Numbered from the stretch's first letter, positions 3,987 through 63,732 are shown. The stretch: DNA of 64,000 nt from Eledone cirrhosa (GCA_964016885.1 OZ024741.1:361398001-361462000), one strand, 5' to 3'. Translations and numbers: made by a program. The notes: generated by a model from the letters alone, not told the origin.

Positions 3987-6900
3987 ATATAATTCATTAG
4001 AAGAGAAAAGCAATGAAGAATGACACGATGCTGAACGAAAACAAAAGCGATATATACAAACACACACACGCCGACCACAACTAAATATGGAATGATACGC
4101 GATGGGGCTCCGCCACAGCCCCGGTGGTCAGAATGGAGAAAGCGTTTCCCTGGAGAACAGCAAGGGAGACACGCTGGAAAAGCCACTCCAACTCACAGGG
4201 CTCACACCTGCAGCTGACTAACTCAGTGCCTATGGTGGTGAGTAGGGAGGTAGCCCTAGGGCCGAGGACACCAGAAGTCTCCACTGCCAGAGGTATGACC
4301 GCAAACCTGTCAGAGAGCGACCGGTATTTGAGGACTTTAGCCTCCTCAGCCTGACGTGCAACAGAACCTGGGTTAGTCGCAGACTGCACCAGGTTGCGGC
4401 TGCAGAAAGTGTCGGTGCAGGCGGCATCCCAGACGAGAGGTTTACCACTGCGGAACGGGAAGATGGTCATGCCATCTGGCCTTTTGTCGTCCCCTCGGTC
4501 CAGCCCCACCGTCTCGAGCTGGGAAGAGAAGCCTGCAGCGTCCAAGCCATGCTTTATGACCTCGTTGAGGGCAGCATGGCGTGGAAGGCGGCCGGCACTG
4601 TGGCGACAGGAAAGCGGGTGGAGGCCGAAAGGGCCCATAGTGGATCCGCAGTGACATTGGTGTGGCTGGCAGATCCGGAGACCGAGCCTCAGGGAAACGC
4701 CAATGCGCAGGCTATTGTTATCTAGCTGCGTGCCAGTGGAGAAGGAGGGCAGGCCAGGAAGCCAGGCACCACTGTGGAGTTTGGAGGCCGCACGAAAACA
4801 GGCAAGGCAGTGCTGGTCGAACTGGCGCATAAGCCTGTCTGAGGCCAGACTGCACTAGATGGCATCCCAAGTGCTTTGGGGGGACTTGACGTCAACAGGG
4901 GGAGAAGGAGGAAGGATGTCTACTGGGCTAAGTCCCAGCCGGTCCCACGTTTCACAGGCGGCCTCACTTTCTCTGAACACAGAGGGTTCTATTGTGTTTT
5001 GGAGAACCCCGCTGACGAGGACGTGGCACAAGGTTACCGATGAAAGATACGCCGGCAAAGCCAGTGAGATCGGGGACCGGAGGCCAAGGCTGCCATACCT
5101 GACAGGTAAAGTGGCCTGTTGCCATCCAATGTCATCAAACTTGACGTTGCATATCTCCTCAGCTGCCGATCAGATACAGGTATTGAGCTCAGTGAGGAGA
5201 GATGTGCGAGTGTAGCACGGAGTGCTGTGAAGGGTATAGAGGAGCTTCGGCATGGCGAAGCAGTTCCTCAACAGAAAGAGGGCTGGGTGGCCGTCGATCA
5301 AGCCCAGTCGGCTCGTGAGAGTCTGGAGTTGTTGGAGCCTGGACCTGATGGTGGAGTGGATGGCCGGCGGGTGGATCAGTGACCCGAGGATGAGGACATC
5401 CTCTTCAGGGGTCACCTGTACCTGGTGGAGAATGGACCACACATCCAAGACAGAGGCTGCAAAGCTCTCAGCATCGTGGCTCACGTTCACCACCTCCGAC
5501 TTAGCTGAGTTGACCTGGAGGCCGATTCCTGCCAGGGCAGGAACCACCTATTGTGGGTCATGGCAGACAGTCTGTACGGGCCCGCCCAACATAGCAACAT
5601 CCAGATACCAAACATTGAGAGGTGCTGTGATACTCCGGGCGATGTGGTCTATACCAAGGGCAAACAGGAGGGGTCCCAAAGGGTCGCCCTGCTGGACCCC
5701 AGTGGCCGAGGGTATAACCGTATCAGCAGCAAAGAGCATGCTCGGGGCTCCATATGACAGGTAGGCCAGCGGGTAGGCAGAAGGGGCTTGGCTGAGGCAG
5801 GCTTCGAGCTGATGGTCCCAGTGTAAGCAGTTGAAGGCATTCCTCATGTCAAGCTTCACAATGAGGTGCCTGGAGTCCCTGGGTGCCGGTTCCAGTGGGC
5901 AGCTGTTGAAGAACTGCCTGGTTGCATGTGTGGCCCCCTCATAGCGACATGCCGACACCCAGTTGCACCGGACTGAACTCCTCACCAAGTTCGGGTGTTA
6001 TGGACCTGCAGACCACCTTGGCAGCCAGCCTCCGGAAGACATTGCCCACGGTGATGGGGTGTATGCCACCATCTTTCTTCCTAAGAGTGGTGAGGTTGGC
6101 CAAAAAAAAGAGGCCTCAGCTGTGAGGATCCAGGGTGCCATAGATGACCCTATTCGTGAGCACCACAATTGCACTCAGAAGGCGGCACCCGACCTCAGCA
6201 AAGAGGGGATTAGGAGCTCCTTGAGGTGGTCTGGTCTGAGACCATCAACACCTCCGCTGCTGCCAGCTGGGAAGGACTTGATGGCGGACATGATGTCTGC
6301 ATCAGAAGCCACAAGGAGCAAGTGGGGGTCGGGTGGAGGTATGGGTCTGAGATCAGTGGGTGGCTCAGGGTGCATAAGTCACAGGGCAGCCAGGACCTCC
6401 TCGGTGGGCTAGAGGACAGTGTCCTCTGAGGCAACCACTCTGACTGCGGCCGAGACATCACCCATGATTAATTTAGCATTTACGTGGTTGCGCAAATGCT
6501 TAGCGCTGGCCTCAGGGGTGGAGGATTGGGGGTACCCGAGGGTGGGGTGTGTGGCGTCCCTGGGCATGCTTGGAATGGGCGCTTGCCCAAAGGACAAAAC
6601 ATTGGCCTTGACGAAGGCTGCTGTCGACCGGCTGCCCCGGTCAGCGCCAGAGCTGGGGAGGCCGAGGGGTCGATTGGAGTCCAGGGTGCTCTCAATCGAG
6701 GAGGTGAGGGCATCGGCTATTGGCACCTTGCCGCTCTAGGGATCCTGAGTGTTATCTTCCGGAGCTGCATGAGCCGAGCGATGTTGACCAGCGAGACTTG
6801 GACGTCAGGCAAGCTCACTGTCTCATCTGGTGGTGTGCCAGACGGCCATGGCTGGGCAGACGAGGGGAAGAGGCAGTTCCTGCATCTCCATGCTGCGAGG

Positions 6901-43351: not shown

Positions 43352-46300
43352 CTAAAAAGTAAAGAAAAGACATTGATGAAACTGAACGAAATAGGGGTAC
43401 ACAAAACAGATAAACAGAACCAGACACTTCAACAAGCAGACATAATATAACCCCGTAATTCACTAATCTTCACACCTGACTAAAATTTGTCACCTGCTGA
43501 TAGGAATAGCAGAATATTCAAATAGGACATGATCAAGTCATGATTTAATAATTGAATTATATAATCCCTTTGACACCAAATGGCCTGAAACTGCCCCTGG
43601 TTCTCTATTAAGCTATTTACTTTAAAGTGCTTACATTTATCTAAAATCGTTCCATCATAAATTTGTGAGAACCTTTGTTGAGTTATGTTCCAAACACCAG
43701 CTTCAGAAAGTTAGTTATATTACTAAACCCCTGAAAATATGCTAACGAAAGAATTAATATAACAAAATGGTATTTCATTAAAATATCAAAACTACAAACC
43801 AACAACAAATTTCTCAATCTATCACCCCAAAACTGAGTTTAACTCTTGAGACCAAGAGAGTTTGTATGCTTCAACAGCTTTAGTTACTATGAGGAATAAA
43901 CCTCACAAAAATTAAACTTATTGGCACCTATTAATTCTTCATGAAAATTACTGACAGAGACTCTTACAAGTTTCCTTGAATATTGAATTTTACCTTTTAG
44001 AGATTAATTTGCATGAGATAGCCCATGGCTCTATGATACAAAAGCTCTTATTTGAAAATGATCATGTATAAAATTAAAACTTTTCATTATAAGTACCTTT
44101 CCTTAATTTATGTTACAAACTCCAGTTTAATAACAAAAAAGTTATTTTTGACATTTCCAACATTAATGGAAACAGGCTTATTTCATTAGCCAAAAAATGG
44201 GTGAAAAAGCAAGAAAACTGGAAGACTAAATTTAACTTTTAACAGAAAATATCTAAAAACAGATTTGTTAATTGAAATACTTATAGTAGTTTTACTAGTG
44301 GACAGACATTATGAACTTTCAAAGTAAACTAAAGACTTTAATTTCTAAATTGATGCAGCCATAGTGTTGTTTTGTACTTTTCAAGAATGTCTTGTTTATA
44401 TAGTTTCATGTGGTACATACAAGACATCAGGGGTTAGAATTTAGGTTAGTGAAAGAGTAGTTTAAAGTAAGGTTTCAATAAATTCTGTTTGATTTATCTG
44501 ACTAAAACAGACATTAGCATGAAATTTAATGTCCTTCAAAGGCAGCAGATAAATGAATCCTTATTTTTATCAAAAACAATTTCTGAGTCTAAAACAAATG
44601 AATGAGTTTAACTGAAGTTAACCCTTGCCAATAATGAAGCATTCAGACAACCGTACTTATTACAAAGACAACATTAAATTTTACAAGCCCACGAGGCAGA
44701 CAAGACATTTTTCTGAGTGAGAAAAACCGTTTTGAAATGTACCTGTACCTCGGGTGTTGAGATGCTTGGGAATTATTCCCCTTCGTGATAGGCACTTGCG
44801 GCTGCTTGAGCAAGGGAGGGGGAGCCGGTGTGCCAGCAGCCGTTGGGGTAGCATTATTCCCACTACCAGAAGCTGGCAGATTACCTGCTGACTCCTGATT
44901 TATAGGTGGTGGAGATGAAGATGCTGCAGCACCATCAGCTGAAGATTTACCATCAACATCCATCTGAAGAAAAAAGTGAATTTCAAAAAGTGAATTTCTT
45001 GCAAGAAAAAAAAAAAAGTATAAATTATTAAAATGTAAAAATTCTACTTAGATACTTCATCTGATTGTCGTGTTATCTGAACGGAAATTTCATCTAATTC
45101 GGAAGAGAAAAATATTAAAATGGCGGTAACAGCTGAATGTTTCGAATAGCCATACAACATTGTTACAGTGGAAATTATACACAAATAAATGGTTGCATTT
45201 GAATTAATCCTTTGTGGAAAAAAAAACTTTTTACATTTTGGTGTCAAAAACTCTCAAAGGTTTCAATACGTCAATTCTATAAATTTCAACAAAGAATTGA
45301 ACACATACAGAAAAGTGAAATAATTATGAATGACAAGGCTGACAAGGCCTATTTGAAAGTGGAGTAAATTATGTAAACATGTGAAAGAATAGGATGACTG
45401 TGGCATTGGTTTTGGTTGAGTATTTGATCTTTTGATCAACTGAACGTCCAACTTGTGAAAGTGATTCAATATTTCAAACACATATATCCTTAATGTTGTA
45501 TGACAAAATTGGACCTTTGAATTACAAGTACAATCCATCTCGCAGGCTTCAACAGTTTCCACCTACCCAGTTTTACTCACAAAGCTTGCCCTAAATGCCA
45601 TGCAGTGGGCTTGAACTTGGGATTGTGAAGCAAACTTTTTAACCACTCAGTCATACCTGCAACCACTAGCTTAACCCTTTAGTATTTAACCAGGCCATAT
45701 CTGGCCAGAATTCTATCACCTCTTTCTGTTGAAACCAGCTGTAACTGGCCACTCATACTGATGTTAAAGTATTGTTCTCAAAATAAATAACATCAAAACC
45801 CCATAGATTCAATATTATGTGAAAATACAATAGTAAATATAGAGTAATGTAAATGCTAAAGGGTTAATGCTAGAGCCAAAAGTAATTAGGTGTGAGAATG
45901 AGGAGGAAAACAGCTGCTGGATGTAGGTTGGTTGGGTTAAGTTAATTTCACTATCATCTTACTGCATGCCATCTCAAGTAGACCAAAGCCTAGCGAGTGA
46001 AATTGGATAGACAGAAACTGTATGGAAGCCTGTCAGATGAATTGTTCAAGATAAAGGTCTGACCATGACACATATTATGACATGTTGATTTGGCTTGGGA
46101 ATTGTATTAAGGGGACACATGTCAGTGGAATACTCCAGCCTTAACACATTGATTCACAAGATGGATATTCAGGTGATCAAACAACTGAATAGCTCATCAT
46201 AAAGTCCATTAGAAAGATGGAGTACCTTAATTATAAGTGGCAGTGAACAATTAACAATATCAGTACAAATATCAACTTCTAAAATATGATACTGGGATAA

Positions 46301-49300
46301 AGATTGCTAATTTCACTTCAACACAAAATTCATCTATTATGTGTGCGAATAGACTTTTATATGGAAAGATGAAATATTGTTAAAACTGTATAGTTATGTA
46401 GTTCAGAACCTTGCCCCAAAACCATGACAGCAGGTTTGAACTCACAGCACAACATCTTGGATAAGAGTGTTCAAGTATAACCTTAGCTTGACCAATGCTT
46501 GGCAGACATTAACTGTAGAAACCTGTCATATGTGTCCATACCTGTTTTATATTTTCAAAACAATGTTAACAGATCTCAAGGAATACTTAAATCTTGAAAA
46601 TAAAACAAATACCAAAAATGATACCTTGTCAATATCTTTCTTATCTTCTTCTTCCTCTTCATCTTCTTTAACTGAGTCCGTTCCATGTTCACTTTCATAC
46701 TCAGCCAAGACTTCATCTAAATTATACCTGCGTCTGTAATTTATAAAAAAGTTACGCACATGCGCTTCAAGTTTATTGCCAATCACTTCAGCAATAGCTT
46801 TGAAATCTTTTCCATAACGACGAACACCTGCAAAGAGACAAATACACATGATGCATCATTGCACATAATTCCCACAACTGACAACCAATTATATTTGGAA
46901 TTTAAAATGCTTTTTCTTTTATTTTTTTACTTTTGGTGAAAGCTACCACAATGCAAATCAAATAACTAAATAATAGTTGAATAAGTTAGATAACGAAACC
47001 CAGGAAACGTTTCTGTTCACCCCCCCCCCCCTTCTCCAGTGGTACGTTATCCAAGTATCATTTCAGCTATATGGTAGCCCCCCCCCCCAAAGCAAACATA
47101 TTTTCAGTTAAGAATACAGTGGGGGGGGGGGGGAATGATTAACTATAAAGTTGAATTTAGTCAGGCTTTCTAAAACTGAACTGACAATATTACACAAGAA
47201 ACTAAATTAAAGCAATGGTTCCCATCCTGGGATTTATGAGCTCAGTTCAAAATTTCAAGTAATTGGTTAAAAATGTATGTACATGCTATTCTTCTATAAG
47301 TATAACCATTTCTCTGATTGCTATCCTCGCCATATAATTATCTGGGAAGAAAGTATTTGTAATAGGGGAGGTCTGTTGAAAAATTCATTTACGTGAAAAT
47401 GTTGAAAACCAGTGAGCTAGAGCTACAAGCAACTTACCCTGCACTGCAAGCAATAGTTCATCATTAGTCCAACGAGAATTTATTCTCTGAGTTGTCTGGC
47501 AAGTTTGGAAAAAAATAAAATAAAAATAACATTAGAATAGGTAAATGCAACTAACTTAACATCCTATAGTGATTTAACAGAAAAAAATCTAAAACTGAGT
47601 TAGTAAATTTAAATGTATCTTGTGGACAGATCAATGTAAAACTGTGGCACTAAAGTTGACTTTAATTTTTAAAGTGATGCAATCAGACCGTTGAATACTT
47701 TTCAAGAATGTTTTAATAGTTTAATGTAGTAGAGGATGTTAAAAATTAAGACAGAGGTGAAATGCAAAGACATCTTGTTATTGAAACAGTTCACATTTGA
47801 GCATTATTACCAACCCACTACTGTAATATATTTGAGAAACATCTTGCTCAATAAATGAAAAACCTCTGCAAGTTAAGCTGGCCTTCTACAAAATCGCATC
47901 TCAAGTTTCTTAATGATAGGGGCCCCAGTCCTATCATGGAGATATGTCTACTAAAAGTCAGGTGTAACTGTTCAGAATTTAAAATGCTAATATAGGAAAG
48001 TCACAACCCATTTGAATTAGAGTTTGAATTACAGTTCATCCAACAGGCTTCCTAATAGCTTCCATTTACCTAAATTCACTTAAAAAACTTGGGTCAACTT
48101 GAGGCTTTTGTAAATGACACCAAGATGTTTCACAGAAGAATCAAACCAGGGATCTTATAACTGCAAAGAAAACTTAATTATTCAGTTATGGTGACTAATT
48201 ACTAGTACTCCACCCCCTTTTACACACATACAGACAGGCAGACAGACAGACAAAAATATAAAAATTAATTACTTCTGGTGGTCTCCACTCGTCTATTCCA
48301 GAACTTGTTTTGTGTTTCTGCATACTTATGATCTGTTTGTTGTTTTGAACCTAAATAGAGGAAATTATGCTGAGTAATAATTCACACTTCATTAGTGTAA
48401 TGTTATTGTCTAAAAAATTTCTTAAAGCTTTGTGAGGTTATAGTTTAAGATCTTGCAAGAGGAAATGAGAAGAAATAATTTCCCTAAATGTTTACCCTTA
48501 TAGAAAGTGGACATTAAATGCAGTTGTTGGGGATGATGTAAATAAATAACAAAGAAAACTATAGCAACAATACAAGAAAAATATAGAGAAATTAATTAAT
48601 TAATGAAGAGAGAACTAACATTTATTACTATCTAACTTGCAGCATGTCTTTTAGAGTCAATGGTGCATTAACGCCTTTGTTACCATATTTCTAATGAAAG
48701 ACACTGTTTTCAAAATTATTTGAAAATTATAGGCAATCATGAATTTGGATGGATTTAATAATATAACTTTCATATTATTAAGCTGGTGTTTGGAGAATAA
48801 CTTAGAAGTTCTTACATAAAATCGATGGAAAGGTTTTAGATTAATTATGAACACTTTAAAAATAAACAGCTTTATATTATGGTGGAGTCAGAGGATCGGA
48901 TATCAAAAGCATTAAGTTGATGTTTGGAGCGTAATATGTTTTTGCATAAAATTATGTGGGAAAGTTATATAAACAATGTGAAACAAACAACTTTTGTATT
49001 GTAAAACTAATGGTGGTTCCAGGTAGTTTGATATGAAAAGGGTCAAATGAAGGAAGTAAACTGCGAAAAAAAATTTTTAAATAACATATTTCCTGTAAAA
49101 AAAAAAGAAAAAAAAATATATCATCATCATTTCATTTCATTTAACGTCCACTTTTCCCTGCTTGCAAGGGTGAGACGGGAACTGATTTGGCTTGATTTCT
49201 ACAGCTGGATGCCCTTCCTAACACCAACCTCATTTACAGTGAGTGCTGGGTGCGCTTTTGCCGTGGCACCTCCACGACCACTTTGCAGTGGAATGATATG

Positions 49301-49863: not shown

Positions 49864-52800
49864 GTCTTACCTGTCGCTTTAAAGAAACAAGTTCTGCATC
49901 TAACGACTTTAAGATTTGTTCAGCTTGCTGTAGTGGTCCAGTGAGCATTAACCTGAGGTCATCTTCATTCAAATACATGCCACGTGGAGGCTTTCGTTTA
50001 TGTCGCATAGGATTATGTCGATGCTGGCTATGCTGTTGCTCACGACGCTTCGTAGGTCCAGTACTGGATTTCATTACACCAGTTCGCCTAATATTTTAAT
50101 TTGTAAAAAAATTAATATTTGAAAAAAGAAAACACATACAAAAACAAAAAATATACTTTATTTTACAAATATAATTCCGCCCTTACAAATACAACATTTT
50201 CCACAGAATGACTTCTACGTAATTTCGAAAAATTCAATTGCCAGAGTTAATTCAAGTTTAAGCATTTCTAGAAGAAGATAAAACCACAATTATCAGAATC
50301 ATGAAACATCTAATAATTTAAAAACTATATTAAAAAGTCGCAACTTTCTCACAATGAGTTTCTAAATTAAAACCCTATTCTAGAATAAAAGAAATATATT
50401 TTGGCAGTTTTACCCCCCTCACCACTATATACACATTGTTTTGCTTCACAAACAACTCTAAATAACAGATTAAAAAATCGGTAAAATGTGAAGCTATTTA
50501 AATTTTGTTTAAATGCAGTAATAAAAATTAAGTTGATATTTTGATTTAAGATTAATTAACATGCCACCATCGGTGGTTTCAAATAGTTGATAATACATAT
50601 TCCAAAACCTTAGAACATAGTCATGAAGGAACCATATATCTAATTAAAGCTTTTGGCACTATATATCTAATTTAACCCTTTAGCATTCACATTGAATTGT
50701 CAAATGTCATGTTCATCTATTCGCATTATTTTCACTTAATTATACTCAAGAGGGTTATCAATTTTATTTGTTTGTAATTACTTTAATTTTCTATGTGCAG
50801 ACTTGAAATTTTGTCAGTAGATGTTTAAATAACTATAATTTACAATTATATATTTTTACCTGATTTTTTTTGTTAAATTTGACTTTTATGGGCAGGTGAA
50901 ATTAATTAACAGGTGTAAAAGTAATAACTTTATGGATAAACACAAAAATTTAAACTTTATCTGTTAGATTTGTTGCAAAAAAATCCAATAATGACCTAGA
51001 TGCTGATTTCCATCAATTCTAGCAGTTTTCTGAACAGGTGAATTAATTAAAAATGCAGGTGTAATCAGTACACGGTTTTAGTCTTTCTCTACATTCCAGG
51101 CAAATATTTTCATTGAAAAAAATGTATAAAACCTTTTCACCGGTCAAAATAATATTGGCAATGTACTCTGTAAATGTACGGTGTAAAATTACGTAATAGA
51201 AAGTTCCCAATATATAAGTTTATACACACTTTTAAATTTGTCTGACAATATTTCAATTAATGGTCGTACTTTGTACAGTGGGTCGTAATTTGATTCATTT
51301 CTACCAGGGGCATTTGAAGTATCAACCAGATGCAAATACTGGTTTAATTTAATGAATCTCGTTTTTGCCATAATACTAGATATATAAGGGTCACCAAACC
51401 TTATATCAGTACTCCAATAATTCCACAGTCGTGGAAATTGTTTAATACCAAACATAATATTTATGGTAAAAAACGCTTTCATTTCGGCAGAATCTGTCGG
51501 ACAACATAACAGATCGGGTTTTCCGATATTAGAAATTTGTTGTTGTGCATAGCGATTTGCCACAACTTCGAAGAAAGATTGTGGTAAAATTAAAAAATAA
51601 TAATCCAGTGCTTTAGCATCGGGTGGTAATGTGTGTTGTGGTCCAATATTTTAGTAAAATCCGAAACATGTATCGATGTTGTTTCTTTCAACCACGTTGC
51701 TATTTTTTCAATGGTGTCAGTCAAATCTTCTCTTTCACTTTCAAAGTAACTATCATCATTATCAGATATATCAGAAATAAATATATCTGATTCGTTTGAA
51801 GATAAATCACTGATATTATCTTCTGTTTCTTTTTGATCTCGAATGTCGTCGGACGTAAAACCTTCAAATTCGTTGTCGCTACTTTCGGAAGCCATGTTAC
51901 ACTTTCAACGTTAAAAACACGTGTTATCGCAAGTTCTTTCACTATACTAAGAGTTAATTTTCGCGCGTAAGGGCTTTATCTCGCAGTAATCTCGAATTGA
52001 CGAGATTTCGATGATGTCAATGTTTATTTTTAGAAGGAAATCTCCGTGTGGTATTAAATGTCGGTTTTTGTCGGTTTGAATAAATGAAAGGGGACATAAT
52101 CTTGTCGGTTTTTGTCGCTTTGAATGCTAAAGGGTTAAGCCAATTTACTTAAATCCTGGAGAAGAATTATATCCTTTTCTTACTCTATTTACGGTTTTCA
52201 ATGAATTTTTTAAATAATAAATTTTTTTTTTTTTTCTTATTTTACATTCCATTCTTTCTTCTCAATCAATTTTTTTCTTTTTCTATATATATATTATATT
52301 CCAATAAATGTCTGGATACTGTGTTGATAAAAAAATAATAATAATAATAAAGAATTTGGAGAGATTTAGTGACATAAGTTTTTCAGTTTTAAGCTGGTGT
52401 TTGGAACATAAAAGTTTATTTCATAGAACCAAGGAAAGTTTCAAGCAGCTTGGTGTCAAAAGGGTTAGAAGTTAATTTTTGTATGGCTTGTAATATAACC
52501 AAAGATTGCAACTTACCGCAAATATTGATTGCAACTATTGCACAGAGATCCTTTTGCGGTTGAATGGAGTTGAGAAGAATGCATTCCACAATTTGTACAA
52601 CTTTTGCTATCTTCACCTCGGCTGGTCTGAGTTTTGCATTCAAAATAAAATTTCAAAATTAATATAAGAATAAATAACTAGATTTTATTGCATTATCTAG
52701 TTGATTGTGAAAATTTGCAGTATTAAAGCAAAGATTTTAATTTTGTATGCGATACAATCATAGTGCTGTTTGTATTTTTCAAGAATATTTTGTTATTGTG

Positions 52801-55800
52801 GTTTCATGTGGTACAGGTTGTTAAGAGTTAAGGAAAGAAGAGTGATAACATGGTCTTCTAGCCCATTTGAATTGAATTACTGCATGGTGATAATGTGTAG
52901 CAATAGTTGCAACTGGCATTTCCAGACTGATACCATGTCAGAAAAATAAAATATGGTAGTGCCAGTACTCTGAGAAAATACACCCACTCGACTGTAAGGT
53001 GACAGTGATGGTGTCACGATAAAATGCTCCCAGTATACACTGTAAAGTGGTTGGCATTAGGGAAAGCATGGAACAGTATAAACTTTACCAAAATGAAACC
53101 ACTGAACAAGACATGGTTATCTGACAATCCGTTTGACCCATGTCAACATGGAAAAGTGTAAAATGGTGATGATATCAATTGTGCATCTATGTATGCTTAA
53201 CTCTTTAGCCTTTAAACAGGTCGTATCTGGCCAAAATTCTCTCGTTTTTTTAATTCAAACTGGTTGAAACGGCTGCTTGTACTGATGTTAAGGTATTGTT
53301 CTCAAAATAAATATCAAAATCTCATAGATTCAATATTATGTGAGATAATTATGTAAGGTAAAGCCTTTACCATGAAAATACAATAGTTTATATAGAGTAA
53401 TGTAAATGCTAAAGGGTTAAAGAAGTACACTGGGAGAGAATTATAGCTGTATAACTGCAGAAATAATGGTCAGAATGGAAAACAAAATAAAAAAAGAAAA
53501 AAGAAAATTTTCAAGTAAGGTAGTTTGATAAACTTACCCCATTCTCTTTGTTATTCTCAACATCACTGTCAGAGTTCCTGCTTCCTTCATCTGATGCTCC
53601 ATCACTAATGTAAGGAAGAAAATAACCTCTTGTAAACATCTACCAACAATCAACATAAGTAATGGAAACAATACAGTAAATAAACGCTGTTAGTACAGAA
53701 CTTCAAATAGACATTTTCAATAAGTTGCACTTGACTATTCAGATGTTATCTCCCGAATTAATCTTAAATTACAGCAATTTCTAAAAAACTGATAATCTAA
53801 CAAAATTTAAATTAGCAATAATTAGTTGTTTTAATCAATTATAAGTCCAATTTCAGACCTTGGTGTTATTTTACTACATATAGTATTCAAAGTACAGTTT
53901 TAGAGAACATCTTTTTATGCAATTCCTGAAAACTGATAATCCAGCAAAATTCAAATTATTTCTAATAATTACTTCTTTTAAAAATTATAATGTACTAGCA
54001 GTAACTGTAATAATTCCAGTTATTTTGTAAACTTTAAAATTGTTGGCAGTTTACAAAGAAATATTAAATACCTAATTTCTGAAGGGTTTCATTCTTGAGA
54101 TGGTGTAAAGTCCATATAGGTAGAACTACTCTTAACCCTTTAGCATTTAAACCAGCCATATCTGGCCAGAATTCTCTCACCTCTTTCTGTTCAAATTGAC
54201 TGCTCATATTATATTAAGGTATCGTTCTCAAAATAAATATCAAAATCTCAGATTCAATATTATATGAGATAATTGTGAAATAAAGTGTTTACCATAAAAT
54301 ACAATAATAAATATAGAGTAATGTGAATGCTAAAGGGTTAAGGGAGAATATCTTTAAAAACTGTATTGACCTTCAGAGTTGTCATCTATTGACTTTATCT
54401 TTATGTCAAGTAAACTATTGTAACTATAGAATGAAATAAAAAACAATCTATTTATAATTTTGTTCTGGGTGGTACATTGTGTTATGGAGCAAAATGCTTT
54501 GTTTCATGAAAAAATTACTACTAGCTAGGACTCTTGTACTCTCAGTTGCTTAATGCCAATGAAACCACGGTAAGCTCCAGCATGATGAGCCTCCAACCTT
54601 TACAAGATATATATATCATCATTTTTTCGTCCGTTATTCCACGCTTGCACGAGTTGGATGGGTCCTTTTCAGCATCTCTCCACTTGCCGCGTTCCTTTAT
54701 CATCTCCTCCGAGATCAGCTCTCACCATCACTGTCCAGGTCTTTCTTGGTCTACCTCTACTGCAGCTTCCTTCCACTGGGATTTCGTGGCACCACTTCAG
54801 CCAGCAATCATTTCCATGTGCATCACATGTCCATATTAATGCAGTCTTCTCTCTTGCACACCACCTTAAATTTCTCTTAAATCCAGCTTCTCCCTCAATT
54901 CGTCCAAGCCCTGCCTTTTCTCACACTTACATTACACCTCCAATGAAGCATCGTTGCTACATTTCTCTCCAGTCTAACACAGATGCTATATATCATAATT
55001 TAAAATATTTATGTATCAGTCAATTGTCTTATGAATAATATATATCTAGAATAGATTCTGATTTTGATTTCATTCCATAGTTAAAGCATTTCAGAAACTG
55101 TAGCAGAATGTTCTAGACTATATAAGCACAAAATATTATAAAGAATTTAAAATAAAAACTGGCATATGAATTATTTTGAAAAAAAGAAAAATATGATCAC
55201 CTGTCTCCATCTCTTGGATGTCCAGCAAGTTTTTTAGCCTGGCGATCCATAAGACTGGTTCTTGACCTGGTTTTCTTCCAGGAATAATAATACTTTACTA
55301 AACTAGCAATGGATTTATCTGGAAGCTGAAATATTGTAATTAAGTGTTTAACTTTTCTTTAAAAAAGTTATCAGAATATTTTAAGAATATAAAAATGTAA
55401 TTATATCTTTAATACCCAATAATCTATAATCTATTGAATAACAGGATAATACCACTGAAAGTTTAACCTGTATAGAGCTATGTAGACTGATCCAGTCATG
55501 ACCAATGACACTGTACTCAGCTTTTAATGAGTTAAAGCAATGAGCCAGATTACAGACACTATCAACTCAGCCATCCCACAATTACCAATAACTTAATTCC
55601 TTTAATACAAAAACACCTGAAACCGCTTGTGGTTCTCTGACACTAAACTATTTCTTTTTAAAATGTTCATATTTATCTAAAAACCTTCCACCATAATTTT
55701 ATGTACAAACCTTTGTTAAATTCCTAAATCCATCCAAATCCTAGATTATTTTCGAAATTATTTGAAAATCATACATAGTGCTTTTCATTAGAAATATGGA

Positions 55801-58154
55801 ATTGATAGGGTTAAGCTATCTATGACTGTCCAATATCAACTGAATATAAGAGTAGCTAACAGCTAATTAAAACCCTTTCTTTACAATATTTCTAATGAAA
55901 AACACTGCCTATGATTTTCAAATTAACTTCGAAACAAATCCAGAATTTGAAAGAATTTAGTAAAATAAATAACTTGTTATTAAGCTGGTGTTTTGAAGCA
56001 TTACTAAACGTTCTTACATAAAAGTTTGAGAAAGTTTTGTATCAGAGAATCTGATATCAATGCTTCATAAATTAAGGTTTCTAAAGCAAATTATAGTGAA
56101 ACATAATAAACTGATGTCAATATGTGCACCAGATATGCAATACATTCAAGAATATAATGTGGAAAATATAAGAAATATATTTACCATTTGCCTGATCCTC
56201 TGAAAACTTTTGCCATGGAAGCTAAATGCCTGTTCAAAAAGAACCTTATCTTCAACAGTCCATTCATCAGGAAATGGAGTAAAGTTTGGTAAGTCTGCTA
56301 ATGCTTTCTCAATGTTGTGTTTATGCCAAAACAGCATACCAAGAGCCTGAAAATTACAATGTTAAAATATTAAGGAACTAGCATATTATTATGGGGGAAA
56401 ACCCCAAGAAATATTGGTTTCTCAAATTAAGTGTATAAATTTAATAGTGCTGAACCAGGAAATTACAGGGACTAAAGCACAATATATTTTTTTTAATGTT
56501 TAACCTGAAGGTGAGACAATTCAATAATATACAAGTCATATAAGAATATAGTTTTCTCCCTTATTTCAGCGCGACTATGTTTTTTTGAAAACATTCAGGG
56601 GGGTAATTACAAAACTTGAAGAGTTATGGCACTTAATCGGCCAAGAAATTCAACATTCTTTCAAATAAAATCTGACTTCTCTACAGCACTCTTAACTCCT
56701 CTAAACACACCTGCCTTCTCTACCACACACTGAACTCCTCCAAATACATCTGCGTTTTCTACCACACTGCAGACTCTTATAACAGCCATCTATTTCACTT
56801 CATCCATCTCTCAAATCACTGTCTTTGGTAACTTGAATGTTCTCTCACAACAGTTCTTGGCCCTTATACTCATCTCATGCTTAACCCTTTAGCATTTACA
56901 TTACTCTATATTTACTATTATATTCTCACATAGCTATCTCACATAATATGAATCTATAAGATTTTGATAATATTTATTATGAAAACAATACCATAACATT
57001 AGTATGAGTGGCAAGTTACAGCTGGTTGGAGCAGAAAGGTGAGAGAATTCTGGCCGGTTACAACCGGTTTAAATGCTAAAGGGTTAAACTGAACGTTTTG
57101 CTATCCTCAACAGACTGCTCACTATTGAAAATACTTCATCTAGTTTATCAAGGTGTCCAACCCACGCAAGTATGGAAAAAATGGATGTAATAACGATGAT
57201 GATAATAGACAGTTAACATACTAAATATTATAGCAGTATTACATATTTTATTACAAAAAGACATGGAAACATTTTCTTAAGATTTACATCAAGTATTGAA
57301 GAATATTAGTGTAGCCCTCTTACCTCTGCTTATATAAGTGGAATTGTATTAAAAAATTATTCTAAATTATTTTACTTCAATACAATATGAAAAGAAACAA
57401 AACTATGCAACAGAAGTAGTAACAATACCTGCTCCATGTTATAGCCATGTTTTTCTTTTGCAATAGTAACATAATCATCAACTGCAATATATAGAATAAG
57501 GAATAATTTTTTACATACATCTATCTATCTAGAAAAATAACAGAGCTATGTACTGTATTTTTCAAGATATAAAACATGATCTTATTTGAAATAAATAAGT
57601 GTAGTGTACATGTTAATGTAGTATACATAAGATTACAATTTCTCAGATTTAATCTGAAATATTGTAATCTTATTAACAACTCACTTCAGATATTAATCTA
57701 ACCTAATATTTAACATGAAAATGTGAAAATAAAATATGAAGTTCTAATTTTAACTTCTGCAAATTAGTATAACAAAATAAATACAATAGTTTTTATGTTA
57801 AGATATACAGTATTTATACAGGCCCTTTAACTCTTCCATTACCATATTCTTAATGAAAAACACTGTCTATGATTTTCAAGTCATTTTGAAAATAGGAATT
57901 TGGAGGGATATAGTAATATAGTTAAATTTCTCATTAATTTGATGTTTGGAACATAAAGTCTTTTACATAAAACTATTATGGAAGAGTTTTAGATAAATAT
58001 AAACAATGTTCTATCATAGAACCAGAGATGGTTTCATGTGGTTTAATATAAAAAAAGTTAAAATTAGATATTTGCTACTTACTTCTTGATTCACAGAGAT
58101 CAGCGTTCGGAGCCCAAACAAGCATAGCATCAGTCCGTACATCATTCTTGCCAT
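43225..58154 (-). CDS. RCOR: REST corepressor (CoREST; ELM2-SANT1-GATA-like ZnF-linker/coiled coil-SANT2), 12 coding exons, 5'-partial
   Basis: All exons have AG/GT boundaries and consistent phases: 58083-58154, 57429-57481, 56185-56346, 55201-55325, 53538-53604, 52517-52626, 49871-50087, 48273-48350, 47438-47495, 46625-46827, 44749-44963, 43225-43351. Diagnostic RCOR peptides: [93 protein letters not shown]. Confidence 0.96.
44749..44963 (-). CDS. RCOR: RCOR exon (Pro/Ser-rich C-terminal region, 215 bp)
   Basis: cttcag|ATG GAT ... CCG AG|gtacag; a second in-phase donor lies 6 nt further (exon end 44743). Confidence 0.85.
46625..46827 (-). CDS. RCOR: RCOR exon (SANT2, 203 bp)
   Basis: tttgcag|GT GTT ... 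GAC AAG|gtatca; [45 protein letters not shown]. Confidence 0.95.
47438..47495 (-). CDS. RCOR: RCOR exon (SANT2 start, 58 bp)
   Basis: ttgccag|ACA ... CAG G|gtaagt; [19 protein letters not shown]. Confidence 0.95.
48273..48350 (-). CDS. RCOR: RCOR exon (78 bp)
   Basis: tatttag|GTT ... CCA GAA|gtaatt; [26 protein letters not shown]. Confidence 0.93.
49475..49830 (-). mobile_element. RTE 3' tail copy; near-identical inverse copy at 63733-64000
   Basis: Direct sequence comparison. Confidence 0.88.
49871..50087 (-). CDS. RCOR: RCOR exon (linker/LSD1-binding coiled coil, 217 bp)
   Basis: atattag|G CGA ACT ... CGA CAG|gtaaga; RTGVMKSS...[16 protein letters not shown]...[11 protein letters not shown]. 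Confidence 0.94.
50676..52134 (-). mobile_element. Internally deleted piggyBac DNA transposon
   Basis: TTAA on both sides; 14-bp TIRs CCCTTTAGCATTCA; subterminal tgtcggtttttgtcg twice. Frameshifted transposase N-terminus ([13 protein letters not shown]..., EMKAFF...YWSTD...SIM.KTRF..LNQYLH...[11 protein letters not shown]). Catalytic DDD region absent. Confidence 0.9.
52517..52626 (-). CDS. RCOR: RCOR exon encoding GATA-like C4 zinc finger (110 bp)
   Basis: actcag|ACC ... TTG CG|gtaagt; [37 protein letters not shown]; phase 0 to 2, exactly bridging the flanking exons. The ORF track shows this region in a different frame. Confidence 0.87.
53538..53604 (-). CDS. RCOR: RCOR exon (acidic linker, 67 bp)
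   Basis: cattag|T GAT ... AAT GGG|gtaagt; [22 protein letters not shown]; phase 2 to 0. Confidence 0.85.
55201..55325 (-). CDS. RCOR: RCOR exon (SANT1 end, 125 bp)
   Basis: tttcag|CTT CCA ... GAC AG|gtgatc; [41 protein letters not shown]. Confidence 0.96.
56185..56346 (-). CDS. RCOR: RCOR exon (ELM2 end/SANT1, 162 bp)
   Basis: ttttcag|GCT ... CAA ATG|gtaaat; [54 protein letters not shown]. Confidence 0.97.
57429..57481 (-). CDS. RCOR: RCOR exon (ELM2, 53 bp)
   Basis: ttgcag|TT GAT ... GAG CAG|gtattg; [17 protein letters not shown]. Confidence 0.95.
58083..58154 (-). CDS. RCOR: RCOR exon (ELM2, 72 bp)
   Basis: ttttaag|AT GGC ... AGA A|gtaagt; [23 protein letters not shown]. Confidence 0.9.
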
Positions 58155-60789
58155 CTTAAAAGAAAAACAAAATAAATTATGAAGGGAAAATATTTTAAAA
58201 TCTTGAAGTTCAATTATTCAATTGATGTTAAAGCACTCATTTAAAATATCATTATTGTTAAAAAAGACTCACATAATAAAGAGTTACTTCTATAAAATAA
58301 ATAAAAAAACAATGGAATTAATTGTTCTCTCAGACACACAATGGAATCATCATCATTACTTTACATCCACTTTCCTTGCTGGCATGTATTGGATGGGTTG
58401 TCACACTCTGGAACTAAATGGGTATGAGGACCACACCTAGCTACTACATTCCATTTTGGTGTAGTTTCTAATGCCAACCACTTTAAAAGTGTGTACTGGA
58501 TTCATTTTAACATGTCACTATAATTCAACAACGAAAATATTTGCTATTGAATACTAATAATTCTTTAAAAAATTGCTTTACTACCTATATTACAATGATT
58601 TTACATTGCATATATGAATTGTTGGGGAAAGTACTTTAAAACAAAGTGGTCTTTCCTACAGTTAAGTGTATAATTGTAAAGGGAGGGAAGACAACTAAAG
58701 AAGTCTGCCAATACACTGCTCCAGAACTGATACTTTATTTACTTTGGTAGGATGAAAGACAAAGTAACCTTGGAGGAATTTGAATTCAGAGAGCAGTAAG
58801 CTGAAACAAATGTCAAGACATTTGCTCCAACACCCTACAGCTGCCAATTCGCATGTGCCACCTTAGAGATGATAATGTCTGTAAACATTCTATAAAAACA
58901 AAATCTATATTACTTATGTAGAAGTTTAGAAACCTACATAAAAAGCAACTGAGGAATGGTCTTCATTTCTAAACATTTACAAAATTAGGTGGTTGAATGG
59001 TTAAAGATTGGGTCATAAACAGGTTCAATGATCAAATTCACCTAGTACACTCAGTAAAGTTGGTGATCAAATGTAGATAATATGAGGTAGAGGGAACTCT
59101 TCAGTCTTGTATAAAACAACCTCTCTAGTGCTGGTACCTCAATAAAATACATCCAGTAGACTATAATGAGGTTGGTATTGAGGAAGGGCATCCAACCTTA
59201 GAAACAATGCTAAAATATAGAACATATGAAGAAAACCCAAATATACAACCTATCTTGAACTGTGGTCTATCCAACTCATTTCAATCTAGCTAATTGAAAA
59301 TAAACAAAATTCTGAACTTAAATTCATGTAGTTGGGATTAAATGGTTTACTTAAAGATGGAGTACACACATATAAACAAAGATATAACCTTTTCCTTTAA
59401 CTCTAAACATCCTATAACACATTAAATTGCATTAGTAAAACATACTTGAAAAGTACAAAACAACACTATGACTGTATCACATTGAAATCATTTTGTAAAG
59501 AACTTCAAAGTACTTACACAAGTAAAGATACTATAAACATTTTAATAAAGCTGTTTTTAGATTCTTTCTGCTAGTTACAGGATATCAAGAATTAACATAA
59601 GAAAAGGATAAAGAAAATGAAAACAAAAATATAGTTAACTCTGGTTTTTATCAAGTCAACATTTTAATCATTTCCTTGGTTAACAAGTTATCCCTTTATA
59701 CCAACTTAATGTATTAATTAATTAATGATGTATTAATTAATTAAATGATGAAGCACTGTTAAGGTGAGAGAAAATCTGGGCACAAAATGAATCCATGTAA
59801 CATGCAAGAGAAATGATTGCACAATGCTTATGGATGGTGGTCATAGAAATCTTGGTACTTTTTCACCCTAAGTAAAAAGAAACCATGGAAGAGGAAACCC
59901 AAGAAAAATGATCTCAAGAAACTACATTTCACAAAGACGATGATAAAAAAAAAAGAAACAAATGGAGAGGACTCATAAAATCAATGGTGGAAGTAGAACA
60001 TTAACCCTTTAGCATTTAAACAGACCACATCCAGCCAGAATTCTCTCATTTCTTTCTGTCCAAACCAGTTGTAACCAACTGCTCAAACTGATGTTAAGGT
60101 ATTGTTCTCAAAATAAATAATATCAAAATCTCATAGATTCGATATTATGTGAGATAATTATGTGAGGTAAAGCTTTTACCATGAAAATATAATAGTAAAT
60201 ATAGAGTAATTTATATACCAAACTACCTGAAACAGACCCTGGTTCTATGATACAAAACTATTTATTTTAAAATGTTTCTATTCATCTGAAAACCTTCAAT
60301 CATAATTTTATGTAAGAACCTTTAATTTATGTTCTAAAAACCAATTAATAATGACAAAGTTAGTTATATTTATATATCCATCTAAATTTTTTATTATTTT
60401 CAACATGATTTGAAAATCATAGATAGTGTTTATTATTAGATATATGGTAATGCAATAAACGAAAAACAATTGACAATATAAAGAATAATATAATTGAGGA
60501 AAATAGATGCCAATCTGGTTTCATTCAACAGCACAAAGATGCGATCACTCTACATAGTCTATGACAAACAGCCTCCCTAGCACTGGGCGTACCCACTACA
60601 GTCTGTGGGGTGAAAAGGTTTGAGAAGACTCTTCAGTCATGATACAACAAGCTTTCAAGTGCTGGTGCCATGAAAAATGCACCCAGTACACTGTGTAAGG
60701 TGTCGGATGATAACTGCAGAAGCCATGTCAAAAAAGACTCAAGAAGACTTCAGCTTTCTCATGTTTATTAATTCACATTGTCTTCGTCA

Positions 60790-61452
60790 ACATCCAAAAC
60801 ATAAACATACCGACCATAATTAGATATGGAATGATACGCGATGCCCCCCCCCCCCCCCCCCGGCGGTCATAATGGAGAAGGCGTTTCTTCGGAGGACAGC
60901 AAGGGAGACGTGCTGGAAAAAGCACTCCAACTCGCGGGGCTCACACCTGCGGCTGGCCAGCTCAGTGCCTATGGTGGTGAGTAGGGAGGTAGCCCTTGGG
61001 CCGAGGACACCAGAAGTATCCACTGCCAGAGGTATGACCGCAAACCTGTCGGAGAGCGACCGGTATTTGAGGAGTTTAGCTTCCTCAGCCTGACGTGCAA
61101 CAGAACCTGGGTTAATCGCAGACGGCACCAGGTTGCGGCTGCAGAAAGTGTCGGTGCAAGTGGCATTCCAGATAAGGGGTTTGCCACTGCGGAACGGGAA
61201 GATGGTCATGCCATCTGGCCTTTTGCCGTCCCCTCGGTCCAGCCCCACTGGCTCGAGCTGGAAAGGGAAACCTGCAGCGTCCAAGCAATGCTTTATGACC
61301 TCGTTGAGGGCAGTATGGCGTGGAAGGCGACCGGCACTGAGGCAACAGGAAAGCGGGTGGAGGCCGAAAGGGTCCACGGTGGATCCACAGTGACATTGGT
61401 GTGGCTCGCAGATCCGGAGGCCGGGCTTCAAGGAAACGCTGATGCGCAGGCT
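60790..61452 (-). mobile_element. 5'-truncated second copy of the CRE-clade LINE (RLE domain)
   Basis: Closely similar to 4081-4712; ORF 60820-61503 ends HRVSFHI*. Confidence 0.88.
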
Positions 61453-63532
61453 AAGGGAATAATAACCTTTCGTTTTGAAGACACAATAAAACACACAGTA
61501 CATTATAAAGTGGTTGGTGATAAGAAGGGCATCTTCAGTTGTATCAGAGACATGGTAACCTCTTTAGTGCTGGTACTACATAAAATGCATGGTACACTCT
61601 GTAAAGTGTAGGAACGCATGTGAGCAAGAAGCAGACCTCGACCTATCTGAAAGATCAGTGGCTTTGATTAAATAACACCATTGGTTGAGAACCTTTTAAA
61701 GCATATGCAGACATCCCTTTTTGTTTTAAATTTGTGCCATAAATTCTAAATAAAAGGTCTAAAATGTTTTTAGACAAAGGTACCGTTATTATAATATAAC
61801 CGGTAGAGGGTTAGACGCCATGCTTTCTAGCATAGTTACGTCCCTTTACAGTCTGAGTTCAAATCCCGCCGAGGTTAATTTTGCCTTTCATCCTTACAGG
61901 GTCGATAAAATAAAGTACCAGTAATGTACTAGGTAATTGCTGGCCTTGTGCCTAAAATAGAAACAATTATTATATAACAAATAAGTTAACATCCTGTTTA
62001 TACTGGTTCTACCACTGGAGTCAATACAATCAAATGAAACAAATCCCTTCAATGACTGAATCAAGTAAAAGAATAGAAAAATTAAATGACCACCACCACA
62101 TCTTACAAGTTCAACAAAAGTTTAGAAGCTGCCTACAGTAAACCATCTACACACTTCTTTTATTAACTTGTTCCAACAGTAAACACATGGACACAAACAT
62201 GCATACATACAACAGGCTTGCACACAGTCCAAGGCTACAGTAGAAGACATGTGCCCAAGCTGCCTCACAGTCAGATTGAAACAACAATCACATAGTTCCA
62301 AAGTGAACTTGAAATTCTTATTTTCAAAAATATTTGAAACAAATAAGCAATGTCTCTCATTAGAAATACTAGCAGAAAACCACCCTTCGGATGTTTTCTG
62401 CAAGTATGTGTAGTGTGCATATTGATATTATACGCAAATATATATACATGTAGATATGGTGTCAAATAAAAATTAAATTGAGAATATGAACAGAAATTGA
62501 AGAGAGACTGTCTTCTGTAATCAGTAAAGTAATCCACGATACATTTAAAAAAGACATTATATATAAACTTCATTACGGCAAAATGTTATGAAAACGAAAA
62601 AGGAGAAAATTAGCGACAGAAATATAAACATTATGATGCAAATATATGAACGTTTATATAAGCAATTTGATATAGTGTACGGTTATGTGTTATGATATAA
62701 TGGACGCTAACTGGTAGTGTAGACATTTGAAAATTAAAAAAAAATGAATCTTAAAATAAGCTATACAGTGCTTATATATAAAAATATTTATGTTTAATCA
62801 ACAGATACAAAATTTAGTAGATAAATTATATAATATTCATTCATGATTTATTCAAAGTACTTATTGTAATAACGTGTTCAGAAAAAATATCCCTGAGTCA
62901 CGCAGACCTCCAATCATTAGATAACAATGAAAGGGTTGTCTCGCAACAACTACCAGTCTATTTATGTAGGCTTTAAAAAAAGAAGTACAGCAAAGATGTT
63001 AGTGCTCTGTGTGGTTGGACAGAGTCAATAAGGGGAAGTTTTAACTTAACGTCCTTAACACGCACAAAACTGCAGTAGCAAAATGTTCTTCAAATGTCCA
63101 AAACAGTATTGTGACTACATCAGATTAAAAATTGAAGTCTAGTTTACTGCAAATGTTCACAATGATCTATCCACTAGTAAAGATACTCTAAATAATTGAA
63201 TTAACAAACCCGTTTTTAGATATTTTCTGCTAAATCATTACAGTGTTAAGTGAGAGAAGAAGGCTGCTACTGATTACTATGCTCAGAAGCAACCAATCAG
63301 CAGTCAGTTGTGGTTTCTTTCCAGTCAATGCTGCAGTAGAAGGCTGACTAATGGTAGCATGACAAGAAGTGGTGGAACATTAGAAATATTGAGGGATTTC
63401 TATTATTTTGTGCAAAGAAGAAAAAGAGATTCTCTCTTACATACACTATTATAAAAAATTATTTCAGGAAGATTAAAAAATATTCAAGTTAAATTATTTT
63501 ATTTCTGAATTTATAAACATTTGAGAAAAAAA

Positions 63533-63732
63533 NNNNNNNNNNNNNNNNNNNNNNNNNNNNNNNNNNNNNNNNNNNNNNNNNNNNNNNNNNNNNNNNNNNN
63601 NNNNNNNNNNNNNNNNNNNNNNNNNNNNNNNNNNNNNNNNNNNNNNNNNNNNNNNNNNNNNNNNNNNNNNNNNNNNNNNNNNNNNNNNNNNNNNNNNNNN
63701 NNNNNNNNNNNNNNNNNNNNNNNNNNNNNNNN
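63533..63732. other. Assembly gap (200 N)
   Basis: Run of N. Confidence 1.

What the first reader, a model, noticed from the sequence alone, without database searches (positions are those of the whole stretch)
52517..52626. CoREST carries a hidden GATA-like zinc-finger exon between SANT1 and the LSD1-binding coil
Seen: exon 53538 ends in phase 0 and exon 50087 starts in phase 2, so they cannot join directly. A 110-bp AG/GT exon fixes the frame and encodes C-x2-C-x15-C-x2-C (CTNC...[13 protein letters not shown]). Known: vertebrate RCOR1-3 are ELM2-SANT-SANT without a zinc finger, whereas MTA and RERE proteins have ELM2-SANT-GATA; Drosophila CoREST-L has a long linker insertion; canonical GATA spacing is x17-18. 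Inference: this CoREST retains or gained a shortened GATA-type finger that could give it its own DNA- or protein-binding module in a lineage thought to lack REST. It may already be present, unremarked, in other invertebrate gene models.
Basis: partly seen in the sequence, partly recalled or inferred. Interest (0 to 1): 0.75.

Follow-up and report, generated by a model that had tools for sequence, protein, structure and literature searches.

The report
Ancient zinc finger in octopus CoREST
A real, spliced 110-base exon gives this octopus gene-silencing scaffold protein (CoREST) a four-cysteine motif predicted to fold as a GATA-type zinc finger; most invertebrate CoRESTs examined share it, the tunicate and vertebrate ones lack it, it was already noted in worms and flies, and it likely helps the complex grip DNA.

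Summary
Exon 52626-52517 (minus strand, AG/GT) keeps the frame, and a spliced contig from public run X4 joins it to both neighbours. It is not hidden: the ten joined exons match an Octopus vulgaris CoREST model that already contains it (378 of 381 residues). The motif is predicted to take the GATA fold but scores under Pfam's cut-off and lacks GATA's Trp and Arg-Arg. It was retained, not gained. It occurs in molluscs, amphioxus, echinoderms, arthropods, nematodes, cnidarians, Trichoplax and ctenophores. It is missing from the sponges, tunicates and vertebrates examined. A 2022 preprint already reports it in nematode and Drosophila CoREST and favours convergent origin. What I did not find in print: two ichthyosporean CoREST-like proteins carry a canonical GATA finger at the same place, which points to descent from a true GATA finger and loss in tunicates and vertebrates. 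In drosophilids the finger lies in the long-isoform insert that also holds the start of the LSD1-binding helix. Function is untested. The best guess is sequence-non-specific DNA or nucleosome contact.

The parts
52517..52626 (-). 110-nt exon (phase 0 to phase 2) encoding most of the C-x2-C-x15-C-x2-C GATA-like finger; acceptor has a weak pyrimidine tract
   Evidence: splice joints in X4 contig
52531..52599 (-). codons from the first to the fourth cysteine of the finger
   Evidence: sequence; Pfam GATA 15.1 bits against cut-off 26.8
49871..50087 (-). exon with the end of the finger helix, the basic tail and the start of the REST-helical (LSD1-binding) linker
   Evidence: Pfam REST_helical 57.8 bits; joint 52517-50087
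53538..53604 (-). 67-nt exon, acidic low-complexity linker between SANT1 and the finger
   Evidence: model pLDDT under 50 over residues 189-224
55201..55325 (-). exon with the C-terminal half of SANT1
56185..56346 (-). exon with the end of the ELM2 region and the first half of SANT1
   Evidence: Pfam Myb 18.1 bits (under cut-off, half domain)
57429..57481 (-). ELM2-region exon
58083..58154 (-). ELM2 exon; the 5' exons of the gene were not located in the window
48273..48350 (-). exon with the second part of the LSD1-binding linker helix
47438..47495 (-). exon with the start of SANT2
46625..46827 (-). exon with the rest of SANT2
   Evidence: Pfam Myb 25.7 bits
44743..44963 (-). exon of the proline-rich C-terminal tail
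   Evidence: X4 contig piece 44741-44965

Best explanation
This is a spliced exon of octopus CoREST encoding a four-cysteine motif that is predicted to bind zinc in a GATA-type fold, was likely inherited from a canonical GATA finger present before animals, and likely contacts DNA or the nucleosome without reading the GATA sequence. SHOWN: the exon, its splicing, its place between SANT1 and the REST-helical linker, its conservation, and its absence from the tunicate, vertebrate and sponge sequences examined. PREDICTED: zinc binding and the hairpin-hairpin-helix fold. INFERRED: the finger hangs on a flexible acidic linker after the HDAC-binding ELM2-SANT1 unit. Its basic helix (Y-W-R-R-T-G-x-x-R consensus) and tail lead straight into the LSD1-binding helix, so it would add a second chromatin contact beside SANT2 and raise the HDAC1/2-CoREST-LSD1 complex's hold on chromatin. 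Vertebrates would have replaced it with a disordered pre-linker.
For: Splicing. Conservation: four Cys plus the loop Gly are fixed in 51 of 51 non-redundant 15-loop fingers (selected on the Cys pattern), and Lys/Arg stands at helix positions 28, 29 and 34 in 46, 41 and 44 of 51. Mean column identity over 20 rows of A1 is 0.79 for the Cys span and 0.95 for the helix, against 0.45 for the preceding linker and 0.98 for SANT1. Fold: the octopus model has pLDDT about 80 over the finger and an oyster fragment 92-95. For the oyster fragment the top 4 of 48,161 chains are GATA fingers (GATA1 Z 4.5, rmsd 1.9, 39 aligned; AreA Z 4.4), and the top 17 Foldseek rows are GATA fingers (E 0.05-0.7). All 10 Atlas structure rows align the part to GATA-type proteins, including MTA3 (TM 0.66-0.71). 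Ancestry: Chromosphaera P0199 and Sphaerothecum P0229 have ELM2, SANT and a canonical GATA finger (58.4 and 48.3 bits, over cut-off). P0199 matches RCOR far better than MTA1, RERE or MIDEAS (129 against 24-33 bits) and has a weak REST-helix match after the finger (14.7 bits, under cut-off). PMC9400249 lists both as CoREST-like. Their fingers score 17.8 and 16.3 bits on a CoREST-finger profile, against shuffled maxima of 13.3 and 12.1 in 500. Basic tail: net +8 to +10 from the fourth Cys to the Pro-Pro motif in 8 of 9 proteins checked. PMC4244562 argues likewise that the divergent MTA1 finger more likely binds DNA without sequence specificity.
Against: No binding data exist here. The Cys span itself has net charge of only +1 to +3, and the ctenophore tail is -1. 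Part of the basic tail is kept in vertebrates that lack the finger, so it is not specific evidence. Octopus departs from consensus at 4 of 23 conserved finger columns, against 1 of 23 in cuttlefish, including Tyr24 to Asn and Trp27 to Leu, which may mean relaxed function. Fold scores are modest (Z 4-4.5; no Foldseek E under 0.001). The ctenophore finger (10.7 bits) does not beat its shuffled maximum (14.6). The finger has been lost several times (three sponges, Macrostomum, Helobdella, Dimorphilus, tunicates, vertebrates), so it is dispensable for the core complex.
Confidence: 0.5

Rival explanations
1. The finger is a protein-binding module that recruits a partner (a transcription factor or accessory subunit) or packs against LSD1 or HDAC1.
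For: The GATA base-reading Trp and Arg-Arg are absent in all 51 fingers. An aromatic residue is kept at position 24 (45 of 51), where GATA factors have Gly and the octopus MTA finger has Trp. The octopus MTA finger is the best octopus GATA-type match to the CoREST-finger profile (16.5 bits for the helix half, shuffled maximum 8.8 in 200). The MTA finger region has been mapped in RBBP4 pull-downs (PMC4244562). In drosophilids the finger sits in the insert of the long isoform, the only isoform that binds LSD1 (PMC7145674).
Against: That insert also holds the start of the LSD1-binding helix, which already explains the isoform effect. Vertebrate RCORs bind LSD1 and HDAC1/2 without the finger. Octopus has lost the position-24 aromatic.
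Confidence: 0.3
2. The finger binds a specific DNA motif other than WGATAR and so targets invertebrate CoREST to genes without a recruiter such as REST.
For: It likely descends from a canonical GATA finger. Leu at loop position 7 (33 of 51), Asn after the third Cys (27 of 51) and a basic helix are kept.
Against: Trp at loop position 8 and Arg at 9 and 10 are present in 0 of 51. The loop is two residues short. The preprint notes no evidence of DNA binding for the nematode proteins.
Confidence: 0.12
3. In octopus the finger is a relaxed, mainly structural remnant; the exon is kept because skipping it alone breaks the frame.
For: Four octopus departures at conserved columns. Skipping gives an early stop. 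There are repeated losses in other lineages.
Against: All four Cys, the loop Thr, Lys-Gly and the helix Arg-Arg-Thr-Gly are intact. Similar substitutions occur in other orthologues (Ala in the turn and Lys for Arg34 in Xenoturbella, Leu for Trp27 in Acropora). Four of 23 against 1 of 23 is a small count.
Confidence: 0.08

Closest known systems
GATA-like finger of nematode SPR-1/RCOR-1 and Drosophila CoREST (bioRxiv 10.1101/2022.05.20.492891)
   Same: Same position between SANT1 and SANT2, same four-Cys pattern, no Trp, 14-15-residue loops outside Caenorhabditis, absent in vertebrates. Nematode rows align to the same columns in a published alignment.
   Different: The preprint covers nematodes and flies only (0 hits for 'mollus', 'cnidaria', 'amphioxus', 'chordate') and favours convergent origin. 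The data here reach to ctenophores, Trichoplax and ichthyosporeans and favour descent from a canonical finger. The intron position differs from Caenorhabditis.
MTA1-3 and RERE/EGL-27 (ELM2-SANT-GATA corepressors)
   Same: Same domain order. The finger helix is alike (CoREST C-x2-C-Y-x-Y-W-R-R-T-G, MTA C-x2-C-W-x-Y-W-K-K-Y-G).
   Different: MTA has a 17-residue loop with Trp. CoREST adds the LSD1-binding helix and SANT2. The octopus RERE-like half finger (label recalled) scores only 4.8 bits, under its shuffled maximum of 5.9.
Canonical GATA transcription-factor fingers (GATA1, GATA3, GATA4, AreA)
   Same: Predicted fold and Cys spacing at both knuckles; Leu at loop position 7 and Asn after the third Cys in octopus.
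   Different: Loop of 15 rather than 17; no Thr-5, Trp-8, Arg-9 or Arg-10; under Pfam cut-off. The five octopus GATA-factor fingers score 6-13 bits, none above its shuffled maximum.
Vertebrate RCOR1-3
   Same: ELM2, SANT1, REST-helical linker and SANT2.
   Different: No finger; the region is a predicted disordered 'pre-linker' (PMC10721905).
Drosophila CoREST-L
   Same: A long drosophilid isoform carries a 15-loop finger (P0060, D. bunnanda).
   Different: There it lies in an insert of about 225 residues that is absent from a short isoform of another drosophilid (P0081). No finger-less transcript was seen in the one octopus spliced contig.

Membership tests
CoREST/RCOR | ELM2 domain followed by SANT1 | tested here: met
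   P0001 (378 of 381 identical to the window's joined exons): ELM2 43 bits and Myb 67.8 bits in two stretches
CoREST/RCOR | REST-helical LSD1-binding linker and SANT2 | tested here: met
   window exons: REST_helical 57.8 bits, Myb 25.7 bits; model aligns to LSD1-CoREST chains, Z 12-13.5
CoREST/RCOR | binds LSD1 and HDAC1/2 | not testable with these tools
   inferred from conservation only
Canonical GATA zinc finger (PF00320) | score over Pfam's cut-off of 26.8 bits | tested here: not met
   15.1 bits for the exon; 14.9 for P0001, 24.9 for amphioxus and 23.3 for Solemya
Canonical GATA zinc finger (PF00320) | C-x2-C-x17(18)-C-x2-C spacing | tested here: not met
   15-residue loop
Canonical GATA zinc finger (PF00320) | Trp at loop position 8, Arg at 9 and 10, Thr at 5 (list taken from the preprint) | tested here: not met
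   octopus has His, Ser, Thr and Ser; across 51 fingers Trp 0, Arg 0, Arg 0, Thr 10
Canonical GATA zinc finger (PF00320) | Asn after the third Cys | tested here: met
   present in octopus and in 27 of 51
GATA-type (treble-clef) zinc-finger fold | two hairpins plus a helix with four Cys, superimposing on GATA fingers | tested here: met
   predicted models only: (GATA1 rmsd 1.9 over 39 residues, Z 4.5; oyster orthologue)
GATA-type (treble-clef) zinc-finger fold | binds one zinc ion | not testable with these tools
   needs metal analysis
Canonical GATA zinc finger (PF00320) | binds WGATAR DNA | not testable with these tools
   residue pattern argues against it
Invertebrate CoREST GATA-like finger (SPR-1/RCOR-1 type) | four-Cys motif between SANT1 and SANT2, loop 14-23, no Trp | tested here: met
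MTA/RERE ELM2-SANT-GATA proteins | ELM2-SANT closest to MTA or RERE; BAH domain | tested here: not met
   fold hits rank RCOR above MTA1; no BAH match in P0001

The most novel reading that the evidence does not exclude
CoREST began as an ELM2-SANT-GATA protein with its own DNA-binding GATA finger, still canonical in ichthyosporeans, and shares that three-part module with MTA and RERE. Most animals kept a shortened finger that still steers the LSD1-HDAC complex to chromatin by itself. Its loss in the ancestor of tunicates and vertebrates left RCOR1-3 dependent on recruiters such as REST. Invertebrate CoREST would thus be a self-targeting repressor that vertebrate structures do not represent. 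Descent from a true GATA finger alone I put near 0.75; self-targeting is the uncertain step.
Probability: 0.2. Interest if true: 0.65.

Novelty: new member of a known kind. Interest (0 to 1): 0.38.

Why it matters
The CoREST structures that the searches returned are of vertebrate proteins, which lack this finger, while fly, worm and Nematostella CoREST, the main invertebrate models, carry it. If it binds DNA or a partner, invertebrate LSD1-HDAC complexes have a module that the standard ELM2-SANT-SANT picture misses, and Drosophila CoREST-L offers a direct test. The ichthyosporean proteins also challenge the published view that the finger arose by convergence within invertebrates. The octopus exon itself is ordinary and already annotated as coding.

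Tried and rejected
(1) Gain of the exon in octopus or molluscs: rejected by the distribution. (2) A different bridging exon: 9 frame-fixing candidates exist, but the X4 contig uses this one. (3) Finger-less isoform: skipping both 53604-53538 and 52626-52517 (177 nt) would keep the frame. No such joint was listed, but there was one spliced run, contigs drop rare forms, and 41 and 7 joints were not shown. (4) look-up of sequencing runs: no RNA holder listed; X4 turned out to be spliced. (5) Tree of 71 CoREST proteins with the finger cut out: quick search only, deep nodes unresolved. It groups 9 vertebrate-like rows without a finger, but it wrongly put three cnidarian-like rows (P0055, P0062, P0069) among deuterostomes. 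I first took them for tunicates and dropped that after seeing the Hydra, anthozoan and tunicate rows of the published alignment. No order of events is drawn from this tree. (6) The whole-protein VIA search was filled by SANT and linker matches and did not list the finger. (7) Atlas search by features gave only weak ZZ/ADA2 leads (0.76). (8) The finger-word search missed known carriers such as Ptychodera and Acanthaster, so its blanks mean nothing. (9) The Lottia model P0023 lacks the finger while Patella has it; probably a gene-model gap, not checked. (10) No complex prediction was run, as no partner sequence was in hand. (11) Absence of REST in molluscs was not tested; one search gave nothing that I read. 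(12) Choanoflagellate CoRESTs were not seen. (13) Earlier findings of this scan: none.

Full report
OBSERVATION. The window lies at G000:C2:361398001-361462000 in a 3.0-Gb genome, and the exon region matched once. On the minus strand ten exons from 58154 to 46625 join into one open frame of 381 codons, 378 of them identical to P0001, an Octopus vulgaris REST corepressor model. The 110-nt exon 52626-52517 has AG/GT ends, starts in phase 0, ends in phase 2 and encodes C-x2-C-x15-C-x2-C. Without it the frame stops after 14 codons. Frame logic alone is weak, since 9 open AG..GT stretches of suitable length lie in the gap. Splicing settles it: a 1471-nt contig of run X4 joins 53538 to 52626 and 52517 to 50087 at GT..AG ends, as well as five other introns among the joints shown. 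X4 has no library record and is one run. X1-X3 behave as DNA and cover the exon with no listed difference.

DISTRIBUTION. Of 30 proteins found with the next exon as query, 21 are full-length with ELM2 and were aligned (A1). Twenty of these 21 carry the 15-loop finger: molluscs, a brachiopod, an annelid, two hemichordates and unnamed rows. The exception is a Lottia model. A search with the finger region added 19 proteins, all with the finger, from amphioxus, snails, nemerteans and a sea spider. A profile search of 1.84 billion representatives listed 150 hits. Of these, 62 span SANT1 to the REST helix by my thresholds (88 dropped as partial or low-scoring), and 23 of the 62 have the Cys motif in between; 43 of all 150 have it somewhere. 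Named carriers include Acanthaster, Brachionus, a mite, a spider, Homalodisca and Drosophila bunnanda. Named non-carriers are Sycon, Oscarella, Macrostomum, Dimorphilus, a second spider protein, lamprey, carp RCOR2, and short isoforms of Scaptodrosophila and Trichogramma. I then read by eye the finger columns of 29 of the 76 rows in the alignment supplied with PMC10721905 (supplement 5, parts 6 and 13-17). Eighteen of 29 have it: Xenoturbella (named from row order), four anthozoans (three with C-x4-C at the first knuckle), Hydra, Trichoplax, two ctenophores (17-residue loop, no Trp), two bryozoans, a rotifer, a copepod, two springtails and three nematodes. Eleven lack it: five vertebrate rows including hagfish and lamprey, three tunicates, Amphimedon, Helobdella and Macrostomum. 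Two rows carry the octopus variant of the helix. Absence in a gene model is not proof of absence in the genome. Isoforms of a hemichordate and of amphioxus have insertions exactly where the octopus intron interrupts the helix, which suggests a shared intron (inference).

ORIGIN. The weakest listed hit, P0199, and its relative P0229 are Chromosphaera perkinsii Nk52 evm81s270 and Sphaerothecum destruens comp16009, listed as CoREST-like ELM2-SANT proteins in the supplements of PMC9400249. Both carry a canonical GATA finger after SANT (58.4 and 48.3 bits). P0199's best solved-structure matches are RCOR3 and RCOR1 (116-129 bits), against 33 for MIDEAS, 25 for RERE and 24 for MTA1. It has a weak REST-helix match after the finger; P0229 has none. 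On a profile of 51 animal CoREST fingers they score 17.8 and 16.3 bits, above all 500 Cys-fixed shuffles each. The ctenophore finger (10.7) does not beat its shuffles. Among ten octopus GATA-type loci only the MTA finger (identity checked) beats its shuffles. The simplest reading is a series: canonical 17-loop finger in ichthyosporeans, 17-loop without Trp in ctenophores, 15-loop in Trichoplax, cnidarians and bilaterians, and loss in sponges, in tunicates plus vertebrates, and in some worms. Independent insertion of GATA fingers at the same place is not excluded; I built no finger tree.

STRUCTURE. AlphaFold2 gives the octopus finger two short hairpins and a helix (residues 248-257) at pLDDT about 80, flanked by low-confidence linkers. 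An oyster fragment gives 92-95. Its best matches among 48,161 chains are GATA1, AreA, GATA4 and chicken GATA-1 (Z 4.5-3.4), and Foldseek's first 17 rows are GATA fingers, none at E under 0.001. By sequence the exon's six PDB matches are all GATA factors, at E 0.035-1.2. It resembles a GATA fold but fails membership of the canonical family: 15-residue loop, Pfam 15.1 against 26.8, and no Trp or loop Arg in any of 51 fingers.

MECHANISM. ELM2-SANT1 binds HDAC1/2, the linker helix binds LSD1 and SANT2 binds nucleosomal DNA (PMC10721905 passages). The finger sits where vertebrates have a disordered pre-linker. Its most conserved part is the helix (0.95 column identity), with basic residues at three positions, followed by a basic tail. 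In GATA factors this helix and tail face DNA (PMC4244562 passage on GATA fingers; that the helix enters the major groove is recalled). With the base-reading residues gone, I commit to sequence-non-specific DNA or nucleosome contact (0.5) over protein binding (0.3), a new DNA motif (0.12) or a remnant (0.08). In drosophilids the finger (residues 399-421 of P0060) lies in the insert 273-497 that a short isoform of another species lacks, together with the Pro-Pro-Lys-Gly-Met start of the LSD1 helix. That fits CoREST-L, the isoform that binds LSD1 (PMC7145674), but does not show that the finger is needed. Octopus departs from consensus at 4 of 23 conserved finger columns, cuttlefish at 1; the count is too small to call relaxation.

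WHAT IS KNOWN. bioRxiv 10.1101/2022.05.20.492891 (passages; supplements closed) describes this finger in Caenorhabditis SPR-1/RCOR-1, notes 14-15-residue loops in other nematodes and Drosophila and none in vertebrates, says it likely arose in invertebrates and more likely by convergence, and knows of no DNA binding. PMC10721905 (passages; list of supplements; supplement 5 parts 1, 6 and 13-17 and one search of it; the other five files not read) has no 'zinc' or 'GATA' in its main text. PMC9400249 (passages; term search of five supplements) has no 'zinc' or 'GATA' in its main text and no 'GATA' in those supplements. PMC7145674 (passages) has no 'zinc finger'. PMC4244562 was seen as passages. 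All other papers were seen as search listings only. Five searches turned up no account of the pan-animal spread or of the ichthyosporean finger; subscription journals are not covered. Precomputed Pfam labels already mark PF00320 on four amphioxus proteins and on both ichthyosporean ones, so databases hold the fact.

VERDICT. The exon is real and the finger is likely real. As a kind it is known, and the octopus exon is already in gene models. The added value is evolutionary: probable descent from a canonical GATA finger and loss in tunicates and vertebrates, with a clean test available in Drosophila CoREST-L. Interest 0.38.

Noticed in passing
window 50676-52134: A 1459-bp piggyBac-like insertion in the intron after the finger exon: TTAA on both sides, inverted ends, and a broken transposase frame at 51650-51192 (Pfam DDE_Tnp_1_7, 77 bits). 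A contig of run X2 joins 50671 to 52135, an empty allele, so the insertion appears polymorphic.
   Followed up: partly
window about 53230-53420, 54140-54340, 56880-57080, 60030-60220, 45690-45870: Short, very high-copy elements with the same TTAA-CCCTTTAGCATT ends, probably piggyBac-derived miniature elements; summed contig depth near a million at 53206-53467.
   Followed up: no
window 53639-53605: Cuttlefish-type proteins P0002 and P0003 have a 17-residue insert just before the acidic linker exon. The window has an upstream AG 35 nt before that acceptor, which would shift the frame if used. Read by eye only.
   Followed up: no
window 44749 and 44743: Two GT donors 6 nt apart end the tail exon; P0001 and P0003 have two residues here that P0002 lacks, suggesting tandem donor use.
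   Followed up: no
proteins P0027, P0047, P0048, P0049: Hemichordate and amphioxus isoforms insert 7-12 or more residues at the intron inside the finger helix, which would break the conserved basic helix; possibly a splicing switch on the finger.
   Followed up: no
window 4084-6735 and 60972-61667 (minus strand): Broken non-LTR retrotransposon-like frames with reverse-transcriptase-like and endonuclease-like stretches; the family resemblance is recalled, not tested.
   Followed up: no
proteins P0199 and P0229: Ichthyosporean CoREST-like proteins with one SANT and a canonical GATA finger; candidates for a self-targeting HDAC corepressor in animal relatives.
   Followed up: partly
window 63533-63732: A 200-base assembly gap; the 5' exons of CoREST were not found in the window and probably lie beyond its end.
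   Followed up: no
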